Shown: positions 7,854 through 10,208 of the stretch, piece by piece
How positions within the stretch are numbered: position 1 is the stretch's first letter
Layout: each line of letters begins with the position of its first letter
Assembly (NCBI GenBank): GCA_026387715.1
Contig: JAPLLF010001100.1
Location: 1-26,754 of the forward strand
Length of the DNA: 26,754 nt
Direction of reading: 5' to 3'
Source: Pseudomonadota bacterium
GTDB taxonomy: Bacteria; Myxococcota_A; Polyangia; Haliangiales; Haliangiaceae
Translations under genes and position numbers: made by a program
The notes under the pieces: generated by a model
What the model saw: only the letters and a program-made list of their open reading frames with translations
The model's database searches: none
What the model was told of the DNA's origin: nothing

Positions 7854-10208
7854 TCACGAACGGCTGCGGCCGTTCACGACCGTGGCGGCCGACTGCGACT
7901 GGGACGCGGAGGCCGCCGCATCCGGATCGTCGGGCATGGCGGGGGCGTCGGCCGCGTCCGGCACGACCAGCCGCCCGGTCGCGGTCGGGACGTCCTCCTG
8001 GTTCACCTGGTCGGCCACCAGCGTGGGGGTCTCCGCCGTGGCGACCGCCGGGGGCCGGTAGGCGAGCCACCACGCCGTCGCGCGGTCGCCGCGGAACGCG
8101 TGCTCGGCCGGGATCTCGATCGCGCGCAGCTGGGCTGCGAGCAGCCGGGCGTTCGCCGGCCGATCCGCGGGGCGCTTCGCGAGGCACGCGCGCACGATCT
8201 CCTCGAGCGCGGGCGGCAGCCACCCGGCGACGCGAGAGGCGAGCTCCGGCACCTCCTCGAACATGTGACGCTGGATCGTCGCGAACCCGTCGCGCCCGCG
8301 CGGAAACACCTCCGTGGCGGTCAACAGCCACCAGGCGACGCAGCCGAGCGCGTAGAGATCGCCGCGCGTGTCGACCGCGCCGCCGGCGCCCATCTCGGGC
8401 GGGATGTAGCCTGGCGTGCCGACGACCGAGCCCAGGGCGGTCAGCTTGCCGCTCACCGCATCGGAGCTCGCGGGCGTGAGCGTGTCGGGCGCGGGCAACA
8501 CGATCGCCTCGAGCGGGTCGACGGGCTCGACGAGGTACTGGACGATCCCGAAATCGAGCACCTTGACGACGTCGACCTCGTCGGCGGCGCGGCTCACGAA
8601 GATGTTCGCCGGCTTGATGTCGCGGTGGAGGAGCCCCGCGTCGTGCGCCTCGGCGAGCGAGTTGCACGCCTGGATGAGGATGTCGATCACGCGCGCCGCC
8701 GGCTGCCGGCCGAACTCCTTCACGAGCTTGTCGAGATCGAGGCCGTCGAGCAGCTCCATCACGAAGTAGAAGGTGCCGTCGTCGGTGACCCCGTAGTCGT
8801 AGAGCGCGATCGTGTTGCGCGATCGCATCGTCGCGAGCGTCTGGGCCTCGCGCCGGAACCGCTCGCGTAGCTTCGCGGCGTGGGCCTCGTCGCGCAGGGC
8901 CTCGGGCCGCACGAGCTTGATCGCGGCGGCCCGCGCGAGCAGCCGATGCTCCGCGCGCCACACCTCGCCCATGCCGCCGGCGCCGAGCTTGCCGACCAGC
9001 CGGTAGCTGCCGAGCTCGCGCGCGCGCGCCTCGGCGGTGCGGAGCTCGGCGCGCGCCGTCGTCACCGCGCGCCGCATGCGGACGACGTTCCACGCGAACA
9101 TCACCGCGACGCCGAGCGCGATCGCGAGCGCGATCGCCGACGCGACGAGCATCTGGCGCTCGAAGCGATGCGTCGGCGCGAGCAGCACGTCGCGCGGGAC
9201 GAGCGTCGCGTGATACCAGTCGAGCGGCGCCGCGATGCCCGCGCGCGCGCCGCCGATCGGCGCGATCGAGGCGAGGTAGCTCCCGGTGTCGACGAACCGC
9301 TGCGCGGTCATCGGGTGGGTGGCGAGGTCGGGGAGCTCGGTGGACAGCGCGGCGAACAACGCCGTGATCGCCGCGTCCTGATAGTCGGCGGTGCGGAGCA
9401 GCCGGCCCTCCTTCGCCGCGGCCTCGGGCACCGGGAGCCCGGGCGCCGCGAGGATGGTGCCATCGCCGGCGAACACGATCGAGCGCGCCTCCGCGAACGG
9501 CGCCTTGGCGATGAACTCGCTGAGCGCGCCGACGTCGAAGTCGATCGTGATGACGGCGACCACCGCGCCATCCACGCGCACCGCCTCGGTCGCGGTGATG
9601 CCGGTCGTCTTCGACGTGAAGTACACGCGCGGCGCCATCCACGACGGCCCTGGCGTCGCGAGCGCCTGCGCGTAGTGGGGCCGCTGGCGGACGTCGTAGG
9701 TCGACGCCGCCGTGGTGATCGCGGTGACCGTGCGGCCGGCGACGCGGTAGTCGACGCGGTCCACCCCTGCGCGCGTCTCCTGCACCCGGATCTCGTTGGT
9801 CGCGCGATCGCGATACGTCCCGCGCATCACGCCGCTCGGGAAGCCGATGCTCACGTTGGTCACGCCGGGGCGCCCAGCCTGCAGGTCGCGCATGCGCGGC
9901 GCGACCTCCGCCAGCGGCAGGTCAGGGGTGGCGATCGGGCGCAGCGCGTCGAGCATCGGCTGCGTCTGATCGAGCGCGAACGCGATCTCGTGCTCGATGT
10001 CGCGGGCGTTGGCGACCAGCTCGCTCCGGGCCATCGAGTCGCTCGCGTCGCGCGTCACCGACCGTCCGAGCACGAGCACGACGAGCCCGACGCCGACCAC
10101 CAGCGCCGGCAGGATGATCATCACGCCGAGCGGCGACGCGAACAACCGCGCGAGCCGCGCCGGGAGGGGGCCGTCGACGAGGCTGTTCTGCGGCTTGCCC
10201 GGCGACAC
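7854..10208 (-). CDS. Receptor-type Ser/Thr protein kinase: TM1, ~300 aa extracytoplasmic sensor domain, TM2, kinase domain, acidic tail
   Basis: 784 aa with a GTG start. The first transmembrane segment is residues ~25-47 (GVMIILPALVVGVGLVVLVLG). The second is ~345-368 (LVASAIALAIALGVAVMFAWNVV). The kinase motifs are GKLGAGGMGEVWRA, AAIKLV, HRDIKPANIF, VLDFG and GTPGYIPPE. The DFG-to-PPE segment is unusually long, about 50 aa. Confidence 0.9.
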   Translation of the reverse strand: MSPGKPQNSLVDGPLPARLARLFASPLGVMIILPALVVGVGLVVLVLGRSVTRDASDSMARSELVANARDIEHEIAFALDQTQPMLDALRPIATPDLPLAEVAPRMRDLQAGRPGVTNVSIGFPSGVMRGTYRDRATNEIRVQETRAGVDRVDYRVAGRTVTAITTAASTYDVRQRPHYAQALATPGPSWMAPRVYFTSKTTGITATEAVRVDGAVVAVITIDFDVGALSEFIAKAPFAEARSIVFAGDGTILAAPGLPVPEAAAKEGRLLRTADYQDAAITALFAALSTELPDLATHPMTAQRFVDTGSYLASIAPIGGARAGIAAPLDWYHATLVPRDVLLAPTHRFERQMLVASAIALAIALGVAVMFAWNVVRMRRAVTTARAELRTAEARARELGSYRLVGKLGAGGMGEVWRAEHRLLARAAAIKLVRPEALRDEAHAAKLRERFRREAQTLATMRSRNTIALYDYGVTDDGTFYFVMELLDGLDLDKLVKEFGRQPAARVIDILIQACNSLAEAHDAGLLHRDIKPANIFVSRAADEVDVVKVLDFGIVQYLVEPVDPLEAIVLPAPDTLTPASSDAVSGKLTALGSVVGTPGYIPPEMGAGGAVDTRGDLYALGCVAWWLLTATEVFPRGRDGFATIQRHMFEEVPELASRVAGWLPPALEEIVRACLAKRPADRPANARLLAAQLRAIEIPAEHAFRGDRATAWWLAYRPPAVATAETPTLVADQVNQEDVPTATGRLVVPDAADAPAMPDDPDAAASASQSQSAATVVNGRSRS

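What the first reader, a model, noticed from the sequence alone, without database searches (positions are those of the whole stretch)
7854..10208. Ser/Thr kinase built like a histidine-kinase receptor, with an extended activation loop
The topology is TM1, a ~300-aa periplasmic domain, TM2, and then the kinase domain immediately after. This is the classic sensor-histidine-kinase layout, but with a Hanks-type kinase as output. The DFG-to-PPE segment is about twice the normal length (~50 aa, rich in Pro, Ser and Thr). It could be a regulatory phosphorylation platform. The acidic Pro-rich tail resembles a docking region. The ligand-binding domain is unassigned.
Basis: seen in the sequence. Interest (0 to 1): 0.5.

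Follow-up and report, generated by a model that had tools for sequence, protein, structure and literature searches.

The report
dCache-sensor receptor Ser/Thr kinase
This gene encodes a membrane receptor whose outside half is a well-known bacterial ligand-sensing domain (dCache) and whose inside half is a eukaryote-like Ser/Thr kinase; this design is already catalogued, but this Kofleriaceae subfamily has an altered ligand pocket and is almost always encoded next to exported von Willebrand A lipoproteins.

Summary
Window 7854..10208 (minus strand) encodes a 784-aa protein: TM1, a 303-aa periplasmic domain, TM2, a 27-aa helical linker, a complete Hanks kinase, and a disordered tail. The "unassigned" sensor is a dCache_1 domain (model pLDDT 93; best solved matches PctA, Tlp3 and Mlp24). 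dCache_1 fused to a Ser/Thr kinase is already in the literature, including an ITC-tested Myxococcota example, so the layout is not new.

The activation segment is long: 54 aa, against a median of 34 (range 26-39, n=129) in sister kinases. That is about 1.6 times, not twice. The insert is predicted disordered, variable in sequence and poor in conserved Ser/Thr. Only T590, which aligns with PknB T171, is invariant. A "phosphorylation platform" is therefore not supported. The tail's acidity is peculiar to this protein.

New points:
- The amino-acid-binding motif is met at only 3 of 5 positions (W to H178, Y to R194).
- The TM2-to-kinase linker has an invariant length (116/116) and an Ala-rich heptad.
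- A YfbK-like exported vWA lipoprotein gene lies beside the kinase in 10 of 11 close loci, all with the altered pocket.

Verdict: a variant of a known receptor class, of modest interest.

The parts
7854..10208 (-). Whole gene: dCache_1 receptor Hanks-type Ser/Thr kinase, 784 aa, GTG start, stop codon at 7854-7856
   Evidence: ORF list. GC3 0.96. Pfam Pkinase E 3.6e-36. More than 120 full-length homologs at 53-68% identity.
10137..10208 (-). Short cytoplasmic N-terminus (residues 1-24)
   Evidence: It precedes TM1. The N-terminal NSL.D...AR.AR..ASP motif is conserved in homologs, which supports this start codon.
10065..10136 (-). TM1 (residues about 25-48), a membrane anchor rather than a cleaved signal peptide
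   Evidence: Hydropathy peak 3.09. The hydrophobic stretch is 24 residues long, and the modelled sensor stalk helix (model H2-35, starting near residue 46) begins at its end.
9156..10064 (-). Periplasmic dCache_1 sensor domain (residues 49-351): stalk helix, membrane-distal module and membrane-proximal module
   Evidence: AF2 pLDDT 93.1, pTM 0.88. All top Foldseek PDB hits are dCache ligand-binding domains at probability 1.00. The sensor profile best matches the PctA LBD 5ltx, E 1.6e-15. 43 of 43 long non-kinase relatives are Pfam dCache_1. The protein's own Pfam hit is sub-threshold, 36.6 against 45 bits.
9540..9698 (-). Distal-module ligand-pocket segment (Y171 to D223). Equivalents of PctA Y121/R126/W128/Y144/D173 are Y171/R176/H178/R194/D223.
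   Evidence: HMM alignment to PctA, residues verified. In the 107 of 120 homologs where the motif could be read, the W128 position is H 93, Q 10, R 4 and the Y144 position is R 102, H 5.
9087..9155 (-). TM2 (residues about 352-374), ending in the invariant FAWN motif
   Evidence: Hydropathy 2.59. F371, A372, W373 and N374 are invariant.
9006..9086 (-). Cytoplasmic signalling helix or linker (residues 375-401) with no HAMP domain. Heptad core positions are M378, V382, A385, A389 (Leu in this protein), A392, A396 and L399.
   Evidence: The model shows one continuous helix from 346 to 398. The FAWN-to-G-loop spacing is 34 residues in 116 of 116 homologs, and the conserved positions have 4-3-4-3-4-3 spacing.
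8127..9005 (-). Hanks-type kinase domain (residues 402-694) with all catalytic residues: G409/G411/G414, K431, E454, H528-R529-D530, N535, D552-F553-G554, P604-E605, D617, R683
   Evidence: Pfam. PDB phmmer best match PknB, E 6e-36. Foldseek best match PknB 5u94, E 4.9e-17. Residues verified.
8445..8540 (-). Lineage-specific activation-loop insert (residues 557-588): Pro-rich, variable, predicted disordered
   Evidence: Absent from PknB, whose alignment breaks at query 560/588. Residues 561-587 have pLDDT below 50. Family length is 22-37 residues with 15.5% Pro, and only a loose EP.DP...V.LP motif is conserved. It is absent from 129 sister kinases.
8439..8441 (-). T590, the invariant activation-loop Thr that aligns with PknB T171; predicted autophosphorylation site
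   Evidence: 100% conserved in 52 sequences.
8052..8120 (-). Conserved post-kinase extension (residues 697-719): IP.EHAW...A.AWW, with W713 and W714 invariant
   Evidence: Conservation. Helix 708-717 is modelled with block-mean pLDDT of about 80-90. The motif also occurs in sister kinases with other sensors.
7857..8051 (-). Disordered Pro/Ala-rich C-terminal tail (residues 720-784) containing the short motif R746-L-V-V-P750
   Evidence: Residues 725-784 have pLDDT below 50. R746 is R in 83% and K in 10% of homologs. The motif occurs in 94 of 120 tails, and acidity is not conserved.
6210..7769 (-). Downstream gene, 84-bp gap: YfbK-like exported vWA lipoprotein (vWF_A + VWA + YfbK_C; lipobox LAGC; MIDAS DVSGS). 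Candidate periplasmic partner.
   Evidence: Pfam. A vWA gene is adjacent on the same strand in 10 of 11 close loci. A signal peptide with an invariant Cys is present in 13 of 13 and an intact DxSGS MIDAS motif in 12 of 13.
10278..10721 (-). Upstream gene, 69-bp gap: stand-alone CBS-pair protein. Linkage is shared only with the closest homolog locus.
   Evidence: Pfam CBS E 1.4e-24. Found again only in L081, at 60% identity.

Best explanation
The gene encodes a one-component transmembrane receptor kinase of Kofleriaceae-type Myxococcota. A periplasmic dCache_1 domain sits between two TM helices. TM2 continues as an unbroken helix of fixed length, with an Ala-rich heptad and no HAMP domain, directly into a catalytically complete RD-type Hanks kinase.

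The likely mechanism has five steps:
1. The protein is a dimer held by the dCache stalk helices and TM helices.
2. A periplasmic signal is read at the membrane-distal pocket.
3. That signal displaces or rotates TM2 and changes the register of the coiled-coil linker.
4. This repositions the two kinase N-lobes and permits trans-autophosphorylation of the invariant activation-loop T590.
5. The active kinase phosphorylates cytoplasmic substrates that remain unknown.

The extra roughly 20 residues in the activation loop are a disordered, lineage-specific spacer ahead of T590. The C-terminal tail is a disordered Pro/Ala-rich segment carrying one short conserved motif.

Shown here: domain identities, topology, catalytic completeness, linker length invariance, insert and tail variability, and pocket residues. 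Inferred: dimerisation, the direction of signalling, T590 phosphorylation, the ligand and the substrates.
For: - Topology: two TM segments with a basic stretch after TM2.
- Sensor is dCache_1: AF2 pLDDT 93.1. All top Foldseek hits are dCache LBDs. Profile against PctA gives E 1.6e-15. 43 of 43 relatives with GGDEF, cyclase, SpoIIE, HK and other outputs are Pfam dCache_1.
- Kinase: Pfam 125 bits, PknB is the best match by sequence and by fold, and all Hanks catalytic residues are present.
- PknB N-lobe dimer residues L33 and D76 align with invariant L424 and D471. The PDB entries 3ori (L33D) and 3orm (D76A), both among the hits, are mutants of those same PknB residues.
- Linker: continuous helix 346-398, 34-residue spacing in 116 of 116 homologs, and a 4-3-4-3 pattern of conserved small or hydrophobic residues.
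- T590 is invariant and aligns with PknB T171.
- The kinase clade is a modular C-terminal output. Sister kinases at 45-50% identity carry a CHASE domain, a 5-7-TM domain or REC plus sigma54-AAA+ at the N-terminus.
- The literature already lists dCache_1-STK receptors, with an ITC-validated example from Myxococcota.
Against: - No experiment exists on this protein or on any close homolog.
- The kinase N-lobe was modelled poorly (pLDDT 49-74), so the linker-to-N-lobe geometry is not established.
- The dimer was not modelled.
- The protein's own Pfam dCache_1 score is below the gathering cut-off (36.6 against 45).
- The ligand is unknown. The pocket matches none of the published amino-acid, amine or purine motifs.
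- R10 of the PknB dimer interface is Ser here (S401).
- No substrate, FHA protein or PP2C phosphatase gene was recognised among the window genes scanned.
Confidence: 0.72

Rival explanations
1. Split receptor. The real input is the neighbouring exported YfbK-like vWA lipoprotein or lipoproteins. These would bind the dCache domain in the periplasm, directly or carrying a cargo on their MIDAS metal site, and the remodelled H178/R194 pocket would have evolved for this partner. This extends the best explanation rather than excluding it.
For: - A vWA gene lies on the same strand right next to the kinase gene in 10 of 11 close loci including the window, on both sides in 5, with gaps of 9-220 bp. Genes beyond this core differ from locus to locus.
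- All 13 vWA proteins have a signal peptide with an invariant lipobox Cys, and 12 of 13 have an intact DxSGS MIDAS motif. They are therefore in the same compartment as the sensor.
- All 10 vWA-linked loci have H/Q plus R at the W128 and Y144 positions. The 4 family loci with the canonical F plus Y pocket have no adjacent vWA gene.
- Precedents for an extracytoplasmic VWA coupled to a kinase or a dCache domain: P. aeruginosa PpkA has a VWA domain as its extracellular sensor (PMC3224232). All eukaryotic dCache_1 proteins have a VWA inserted, and some Streptophyta have VWA-dCache-STK in one chain (PMC8915833).
Against: - The sample is small (11 loci) and phylogenetically close (kinases 53-68% identical), so shared ancestry could explain part of the linkage.
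- Four loci with a remodelled pocket lack an adjacent vWA gene: L169, L002 and L003 (Q/R) and L004 (H/H). A fifth, L085 (H/R), also shows none within its short flanks.
- By sequence, the vWA protein is not specifically related to the alpha2delta VWA. Its best PDB relatives are PTMP1, Mg-chelatase D and ITIH4.
- No complex prediction could be run.
Confidence: 0.35
2. It is an ordinary amino-acid sensor (dCache_1AA), like the tested Enhygromyxa salina kinase, and reports periplasmic amino acids.
For: The closest solved relatives are amino-acid chemoreceptor LBDs: PctA, Tlp3, Mlp24 and CtaA. Y171, R176 and D223 match three motif positions. A Myxococcota dCache_1AA kinase binds amino acids.
Against: Two of the five defining positions are changed, W128 to His and Y144 to Arg, and the change is fixed across the subfamily. 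In the related amine-motif study, single mismatches abolished binding in the negative controls.
Confidence: 0.12
3. One reading: the long activation loop is a multi-site regulatory phosphorylation platform and the acidic Pro-rich tail is a docking region.
For: The insert is real, specific to the dCache-STK branch and accessible (disordered). This protein's insert has 5 Ser/Thr. S586 is Ser or Thr in 62% of homologs. The tail carries one short conserved motif that could be a linear docking motif.
Against: No Ser/Thr column in the insert is conserved apart from S586. Residues 573-585 are hypervariable and full of gaps. Insert length ranges from 22 to 37 residues in the family, and the whole activation segment from 43 to 83 aa across dCache-STK loci. 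Tail acidity is not conserved: median net charge is +1.
Confidence: 0.12
4. It is a pseudokinase or scaffold, or a decaying gene.
For: Only that the N-lobe was modelled poorly.
Against: Every catalytic residue is intact. Those residues are invariant across the 18 and 52 aligned family members. GC3 is 0.96 and there are no frame disruptions.
Confidence: 0.03

Closest known systems
dCache_1-containing bacterial Ser/Thr kinases (Upadhyay et al. 2016, PMC4822843; Gumerov et al. 2022, PMC8915833, e.g. Enhygromyxa salina WP_106093935.1)
   Same: The architecture is the same (TM, dCache_1, TM, Pkinase) and so is the phylum (Myxococcota).
   Different: This subfamily lacks two of the five amino-acid-motif residues (H178 and R194 in place of Trp and Tyr). 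It has an activation-loop insert of about 20 aa and is encoded next to vWA lipoprotein genes. I could not retrieve the E. salina sequence, so direct relatedness was not tested.
PctA, Tlp3 and Mlp24 dCache_1 ligand-binding domains of chemoreceptors (PDB 5ltx, 4xmr, 6ioq)
   Same: Same bimodular fold. The conserved YD.R.RP.Y ... D core of the distal pocket is present.
   Different: The output is a kinase rather than an MCP signalling domain, the pocket has His and Arg substitutions, and sequence identity is only 13-19%.
Mycobacterium tuberculosis PknB kinase domain (PDB 1mru, 1o6y, 5u94)
   Same: It is the best sequence and fold match. The catalytic residues, the RD type, the activation-loop Thr (T171 aligns with T590) and the N-lobe dimer residues L33 and D76 (L424 and D471) are all shared.
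   Different: The topology is reversed. PknB has its kinase at the N-terminus, one TM and C-terminal PASTA domains outside the cell. Here the sensor is N-terminal, there are two TMs and the kinase is C-terminal. There is no second loop Thr (PknB T173 aligns with L592). The loop has a 23-aa insert. NCBIfam PknB_PASTA_kin scores 209 against a cut-off of 450.
Sensor histidine kinases and other receptors with a periplasmic dCache between two TMs
   Same: Same input module and membrane topology, and a helical connection from TM2 to the output.
   Different: There is no HisKA/HATPase_c and no HAMP domain. The output is a Hanks kinase. This is an analogy of layout, not membership.
Pseudomonas aeruginosa PpkA (H1-T6SS Hanks kinase with an extracellular VWA domain; PMC3224232)
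   Same: A transmembrane Hanks kinase associated with an extracytoplasmic VWA domain.
   Different: In PpkA the VWA is fused C-terminally to the kinase, and there is no dCache domain. Here the VWA is a separate lipoprotein encoded next door. No T6SS, FHA or PP2C genes were seen in the window.
Eukaryotic alpha2delta/CACHD1 and Streptophyta VWA-dCache-STK proteins (PMC8915833)
   Same: VWA, dCache_1 and in Streptophyta a Ser/Thr kinase occur together.
   Different: In eukaryotes the VWA is inserted into the dCache and the amino-acid motif is kept. Here the genes are separate, the motif is altered, and the vWA is of the YfbK type with no specific sequence affinity to the alpha2delta VWA.

Membership tests
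Hanks-type (eukaryotic-like) Ser/Thr protein kinase, Pfam PF00069 | Profile match above the curated threshold | tested here: met
   125.4 bits against a cut-off of 31.7, covering residues 402-690.
Hanks-type (eukaryotic-like) Ser/Thr protein kinase, Pfam PF00069 | Catalytic residues: G-loop, VAIK Lys, alphaC Glu, HRD Asp, Asn, DFG Asp, APE Glu, subdomain IX Asp, subdomain XI Arg | tested here: met
   G409/G411/G414, K431, E454, H528-R529-D530, N535, D552, E605, D617 and R683 are all present. They are invariant across the aligned family members.
Hanks-type (eukaryotic-like) Ser/Thr protein kinase, Pfam PF00069 | Bilobal kinase fold | tested here: met
   Foldseek best hit PknB 5u94, E 4.9e-17, TM-score (target) 0.73. 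The C-lobe has pLDDT above 90 and the N-lobe is low-confidence.
Hanks-type (eukaryotic-like) Ser/Thr protein kinase, Pfam PF00069 | Phosphotransfer activity, with autophosphorylation on the activation-loop Thr | not testable with these tools
   It needs an in vitro kinase assay and MS mapping. T590 is the predicted site.
dCache_1 (Pfam PF02743) | Profile match above the Pfam gathering score | tested here: inconclusive
   The protein's own score is 36.6 bits (E 4.6e-9) against a cut-off of 45. Many close homologs carry a precomputed PF02743 hit, and 43 of 43 long non-kinase relatives match at E of 1e-5 or better.
dCache_1 (Pfam PF02743) | Long stalk helix followed by two stacked PAS-like alpha/beta modules | tested here: met
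   AF2 pLDDT 93.1, with H2-35 as the stalk followed by two beta-sheet modules. All top 50 Foldseek PDB hits are dCache LBDs at probability 1.00 over about 300 columns.
dCache_1 (Pfam PF02743) | Extracytoplasmic location between two TM helices | tested here: met
   Two hydropathy peaks flank the domain, and the basic stretch after TM2 fits the positive-inside rule. There is no experimental topology.
dCache_1AA amino-acid sensor (Gumerov 2022) | Y121, R126 and W128 (carboxyl-binding part of the AA_motif) | tested here: not met
   Y171 and R176 are present, but the W128 position is H178. Among the 107 of 120 homologs that could be read, it is H 93, Q 10, R 4.
dCache_1AA amino-acid sensor (Gumerov 2022) | Y144 and D173 (amino-binding part of the AA_motif) | tested here: not met
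   D223 is present and invariant, but the Y144 position is R194. In the same 107 readable homologs it is R 102, H 5.
dCache_1AM amine sensor and dCache_1PU purine sensor | AM needs aromatic residues at the W128 and Y144 equivalents plus the conserved Asp. PU has Gly at the D173 equivalent and Trp/Phe at the W128/Y129 equivalents. | tested here: not met
   His and Arg occupy the two aromatic positions, and Asp is retained at position 223. The full motifs are given only in figures that I could not read, so this test is partial.
PknB/Stk1 PASTA kinases (NCBIfam NF033483) | N-terminal kinase, single TM and extracellular PASTA repeats, with an equivalog score above the cut-off | tested here: not met
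   209 bits against 450, with only the kinase part matching. There are no PASTA repeats, and the domain order is reversed.
Sensor histidine kinase | HisKA (DHp) and HATPase_c domains | tested here: not met
   There is no such Pfam hit in the protein. The resemblance is in layout only.
vWA-kinase-phosphatase triads (TerY-P type; recalled from Anantharaman et al. 2012, not checked here) | Cytoplasmic TerY-type vWA protein, a PP2C phosphatase and an STK in one operon | tested here: not met
   The vWA protein here is an exported YfbK-type lipoprotein. No PP2C or SpoIIE hit was found among the window genes scanned.

The most novel reading that the evidence does not exclude
In Kofleriaceae, the dCache_1 receptor kinase and one or two flanking exported YfbK-type vWA lipoproteins form an undescribed split periplasmic receptor. 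The dCache pocket would have been remodelled (Trp to His, Tyr to Arg) to read the vWA partner or its MIDAS-bound cargo instead of a free amino acid. The signal would pass through a fixed-length Ala-coil straight into a Hanks kinase. This would be a prokaryotic, unfused counterpart of the VWA-dCache pairing that is fused in eukaryotic alpha2delta/CACHD1 and in Streptophyta VWA-dCache kinases.
Probability: 0.25. Interest if true: 0.6.

Novelty: new variant of a known kind. Interest (0 to 1): 0.35.

Why it matters
How bacterial Hanks kinases receive extracellular signals is known in detail for very few cases, mainly PASTA kinases. Receptors with a dCache sensor on a Ser/Thr kinase are catalogued, but their mechanism has not been studied.

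This family offers a tractable case. It has a high-confidence sensor model and a rigid linker of invariant length whose register can be tested by mutation. It has a single invariant activation-loop Thr. It also has a candidate periplasmic protein partner encoded next door.

If the vWA link is functional, it would give a bacterial example of VWA and dCache working together. That combination is fused in the calcium-channel alpha2delta subunits targeted by gabapentinoid drugs. If it is not, the gene is simply one more member of a known receptor class in a kinase-rich phylum.

Tried and rejected
1. A word-indexed homolog search with the sensor alone returned only 5 hits because of its candidate cap, so it was uninformative. 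The exhaustive representative search replaced it.

2. My first synteny test used tblastn of window neighbours against species-representative loci. It found a vWA gene in only 1 of 10 loci and suggested there was no linkage. This was misleading, because most of those loci belong to more divergent paralog groups. Annotated contigs of close homologs reversed the conclusion.

4. The idea that the window's unannotated 784-aa and 642-aa ORFs are the recurring ~760-aa and ~640-aa cluster proteins was rejected. There is no similarity apart from a weak LRR match.

5. A specific relationship between this vWA protein and the alpha2delta VWA was not found.

6. The CBS-pair protein as a conserved partner was rejected. 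It recurs only in the closest locus, L081.

7. The promoter and terminator scan of 6000-11300 found nothing. It is uninformative for a 71% GC myxobacterial sequence.

8. The supplements of Gumerov 2022 are not held, so the E. salina kinase could not be compared.

9. My first tail-composition script used a wrong regular expression and matched only 20 sequences. It was redone on all 120.

10. Overlapping long ORFs at 5808..8870 (+), 8880..10223 (+) and 7174..9642 (-) were rejected as shadow frames on codon-position GC.

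
Full report
**1. What is at the coordinates**

Window 7854..10208 holds a 784-aa ORF on the minus strand with a GTG start. Its codon-position GC (GC1 0.73, GC2 0.52, GC3 0.96) is that of a real gene in this 71% GC sequence. The long overlapping ORFs at 5808..8870 (+), 8880..10223 (+) and 7174..9642 (-) have shadow-frame composition. The exact protein is on record as 'protein kinase' from a 26,754-bp MAG contig labelled Proteobacteria/Pseudomonadota bacterium. Its closest relatives come from Kofleriaceae (Myxococcota, Haliangiales) MAGs.

**2. Checking the observation**

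- **Topology.** Kyte-Doolittle hydropathy with a 19-residue window gives exactly two strong hydrophobic segments, at about 25-48 (3.09) and 352-374 (2.59). The third-best peak (1.72, residues 215-233) lies inside the folded sensor. Residues 376-400 hold 7 Lys/Arg, which fits a cytoplasmic location for everything after TM2.
- **Kinase.** Pfam Pkinase covers 402-690 (E 3.6e-36). All Hanks catalytic residues are present.
- **Activation segment.** D552 to E605 is 54 residues. The alignment to M. tuberculosis PknB breaks between query 560 and 588, where PknB has only four residues, so the insert is about 23 residues.
- **Baseline.** I measured the same segment in kinases of the same clade already fetched. 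129 sister kinases with other N-terminal modules have a median of 34 (range 26-39). 28 dCache-STK loci have a median of 51 (range 43-83), with no overlap. The extension is real, at about 1.6 times.
- **Tail.** Residues 720-784 have 9 Asp/Glu against 3 Arg, with 7 Pro and 15 Ala.

**3. The sensor**

The protein's own Pfam dCache_1 hit is below threshold (36.6 against 45 bits, residues 158-283). Four independent lines settle the question.

- An exhaustive HMMER search with residues 45-355 found 604 cluster representatives at E of 1e-3 or better. Of the best 150, 59 carry a kinase domain, most at about residue 400. All 43 long non-kinase relatives are confident Pfam dCache_1 proteins with GGDEF (14), adenylate/guanylate cyclase (10), SpoIIE (6), histidine-kinase (5), TIR and other outputs.
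- A profile of 23 kinase-linked sensors best matches the ligand-binding domain of the amino-acid chemoreceptor PctA among solved structures (5ltx, E 1.6e-15).
- An AlphaFold2 model of residues 45-355 is very confident (pLDDT 93.1, pTM 0.88). It shows a long stalk helix followed by two alpha/beta modules.
- The top 50 Foldseek hits in the PDB are all dCache ligand-binding domains at probability 1.00 over about 300 aligned columns. They include Tlp3, PctA, Mlp24, TlpA, CtaA and PctB/C.

**4. The ligand pocket**

Gumerov et al. 2022 define the amino-acid motif of dCache_1AA as Y121, R126, W128, Y144 and D173 in PctA numbering. The HMM alignment to PctA gives these equivalents:

| PctA | This protein | Status |
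|---|---|---|
| Y121 | Y171 | kept |
| R126 | R176 | kept |
| W128 | H178 | changed |
| Y144 | R194 | changed |
| D173 | D223 | kept |

So 3 of 5 positions are kept. The two changes are fixed in the subfamily. Among the 107 of 120 close homologs where the motif could be read, the W128 position is H 93, Q 10, R 4 and the Y144 position is R 102, H 5. More distant dCache-STKs keep F/W and Y.

The pattern also fails what I could read of the amine motif (aromatic residues at both positions) and the purine motif (Gly at the D173 position). The ligand class is therefore open. Two added basic side chains hint at an anionic ligand, but that is only an inference.

**5. The kinase, linker, loop and tail**

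- **Kinase.** PknB is the closest solved kinase by sequence (E about 6e-36) and by fold (5u94, E 4.9e-17). After correcting for chain offset, PknB T171, the main activating phosphosite by established PknB knowledge, aligns with T590. T590 is invariant in 52 sequences, as is L589. PknB T173 aligns with L592. PknB L33 and D76, residues of the N-lobe back-to-back dimer that are mutated in PDB entries 3ori and 3orm among the hits, align with invariant L424 and D471. R10 aligns with S401.
- **Model of residues 340-784.** TM2 and the linker form one continuous helix (346-398). The C-lobe is confident. The N-lobe is poorly modelled. Residues 561-587 have pLDDT below 50. Helix 708-717 is confident. 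Residues 725-784 have pLDDT below 50.
- **Linker.** The distance from the FAWN motif at the end of TM2 to the G-loop is exactly 34 residues in 116 of 116 homologs. The conserved positions M378, V382, A385, A389, A392, A396 and L399 have 4-3-4-3-4-3 spacing, which is an a/d heptad with small core residues. Conserved Arg and Glu flank them. There is no HAMP domain. This points to rigid, register-sensitive helical coupling between the sensor and the kinase N-lobe.
- **Insert.** It shows only a loose EP.DP...V.LP motif. Residues 573-585 are hypervariable and gapped. No Ser/Thr column is conserved except S586 (62%). Composition is 15.5% Pro, 8.5% Ser and 7.9% Thr.
- **Tail.** Across 120 homologs the tail is Pro/Ala-rich (14% each), with median net charge +1. 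Only 6 of 120 are at or below -4, and this protein is -5. A short [RK]x[LIVM][VMIL][PA] motif (R746-L-V-V-P750 here) occurs in 94 of 120.

The 'phosphorylation platform' and 'acidic docking tail' readings are therefore not supported by conservation. A disordered spacer before the canonical Thr, and a disordered tail with one candidate linear motif, fit the data better.

**6. The kinase clade is a modular output**

The genome scan found kinase domains 45-50% identical to residues ~390-719 in Gemmatimonadota, Acidobacteriota, Eisenbacteria, Planctomycetota and other phyla. These share the GGMGEVWRA.H..LARPAAIKL signature and the post-kinase W...A..WW motif. In those proteins the kinase is again C-terminal. 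The N-terminal part is one of the following:

- a 5-7-TM domain with no Pfam match (proteins of about 540 aa);
- TM-CHASE-TM (L071, Pirellulaceae);
- REC plus sigma54-AAA+ (L026).

Their activation segments are of normal length. The loop insert therefore arose within the dCache branch.

**7. Surroundings**

By GC3 and Pfam, the minus-strand unit is a CBS-pair gene (10278..10721), a 69-bp gap, the kinase, an 84-bp gap, and then a YfbK-like vWA protein (6210..7769; vWF_A + VWA + YfbK_C). It ends 14 bp from the stop codon of a convergent pstSCAB-like operon (2562..6195 +).

My first synteny test suggested no conservation. That test was dominated by divergent paralogs. Annotated contigs of close homologs show a vWA gene of the same three-domain type directly beside the kinase gene on the same strand:

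| Locus | vWA position relative to the kinase |
|---|---|
| L081 | both sides, plus CBS upstream |
| L082 | upstream |
| L083 | downstream |
| L164, L165 | both sides |
| L166 | upstream |
| L167 | both sides |
| L168 | upstream |
| L169 | none |

L001 has one on both sides. Counting the window, that is 10 of 11 loci. In addition, L084 has a vWA gene 3 kb upstream, and L085 shows none within its short flanks. Gaps are 9-220 bp, and the genes beyond the core differ from locus to locus.

The window's copy is the ortholog of the downstream paralog (72-74% identity against 63-66%). The window is syntenic with L081: CBS is 60% identical and EAL 86%. It has lost the upstream copy and gained the pst operon.

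All 13 vWA proteins have a signal peptide with an invariant lipobox Cys, and 12 of 13 have an intact DxSGS MIDAS motif. They are therefore exported to the compartment where the dCache domain sits.

All 10 vWA-linked loci have the remodelled pocket. The 4 family loci with the canonical F plus Y pocket have no vWA gene. Four loci with a remodelled pocket (L169, L002, L003 and L004) also lack one.

**8. Comparison with what is known**

The architecture is known. Upadhyay et al. 2016 list STK among Cache outputs. Gumerov et al. 2022 list dCache_1 in Ser/Thr kinases and measured amino-acid binding to the dCache_1AA domain of an Enhygromyxa salina kinase.

An extracytoplasmic VWA coupled to a Hanks kinase has a precedent in PpkA. 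VWA-dCache fusion is universal in eukaryotic dCache_1 proteins and occurs with a Ser/Thr kinase in some Streptophyta. I found no report of a bacterial gene pair of a dCache receptor and a vWA lipoprotein in the papers read. The literature search was limited, however, and this vWA protein shows no specific sequence affinity to the alpha2delta VWA. The parallel holds only at superfamily level.

**9. Verdict**

The protein is a dCache_1 receptor Hanks kinase, which is a member of a known kind. Three subfamily-specific features have not been described in the literature I read:

- a remodelled distal pocket;
- a lineage-specific disordered activation-loop insert;
- near-constant linkage to exported YfbK-type vWA lipoproteins.

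The claims of novelty and of phospho-regulation are not supported. I rate it a new variant of a known kind, with interest 0.35. The most novel reading not excluded is a split vWA-dCache receptor. I give that probability 0.25, and interest 0.6 if true.

Noticed in passing
window 16022..18673 (-): An 883-aa gene (GC3 0.96) matches Pfam MVP_shoulder (E 7.5e-24) and Vault_3. It is a bacterial homolog of the eukaryotic major vault protein.
   Followed up: no
window 13647..16001 (-): A second 784-aa gene (GC3 0.93) with no Pfam hit lies 20 bp downstream of the vault-like gene on the same strand. It is unrelated to the kinase despite having the same length.
   Followed up: partly
window 18708..20441 (-) and 20173..22101 (-): A leucine-rich-repeat protein (LRR_4 E 3e-22) and a 642-aa protein with no Pfam hit. 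Both have gene-like GC3, and their ORFs overlap by about 270 bp, so one start codon is probably misplaced.
   Followed up: no
window 2562..6195 (+): A pstSCAB-like phosphate ABC transporter operon (PBP_like_2, BPD_transp_1, ABC_tran). It is convergent with the vWA gene, with only 14 bp between the two stop codons. In the syntenic locus L081 this position is occupied by a 767-aa LRR-like ORF, so the operon looks inserted here.
   Followed up: partly
window 1584..2432 (-); L081 11241..12032: An EAL-domain protein 86% identical to the EAL gene at the far end of the kinase cluster in L081. It marks the end of the syntenic block.
   Followed up: partly
L011-L079 and L094-L163 (e.g. L016, L024, L034, L037, L056): A large family of proteins of about 540 aa in Gemmatimonadota, Acidobacteriota, Eisenbacteria and other phyla. 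Each has an N-terminal 5-7-TM domain with no Pfam match, fused to a C-terminal kinase 45-50% identical to this one, including the post-kinase WW motif. It appears to be an unannotated polytopic-sensor kinase class.
   Followed up: partly
L026 (Vicinamibacterales MAG) and L071 (Pirellulaceae MAG): The same kinase clade is fused to REC plus a sigma54-interaction AAA+ domain (L026), and to a TM-CHASE-TM sensor (L071).
   Followed up: no
L081 8883..11186, L083 8838..11108 and 3091..5004, L164/L165 from ~8050, L166 6471..8756, L167 305..2227, L168 545..2455: Two unannotated exported proteins recur around the vWA-kinase core in other loci. One is a secreted protein of about 760 aa downstream (L083 and L166 copies are 55% identical). 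The other is a lipoprotein of about 640 aa upstream (40-48% identical). Neither is present in the window.
   Followed up: partly
P0128 (715 aa) and P0136 (1064 aa): Two cluster representatives have the opposite order, with a kinase domain at the N-terminus and the dCache-like sensor after it. They could be real reversed architectures or gene-call fusions.
   Followed up: no
window 10722..12955: The stretch upstream of the CBS gene has only ORFs with ambiguous codon-position GC (e.g. 11519..12811 (-), GC3 0.83; 11288..12781 (+), GC3 0.75) and no Pfam hits. Its coding content is unresolved.
   Followed up: no
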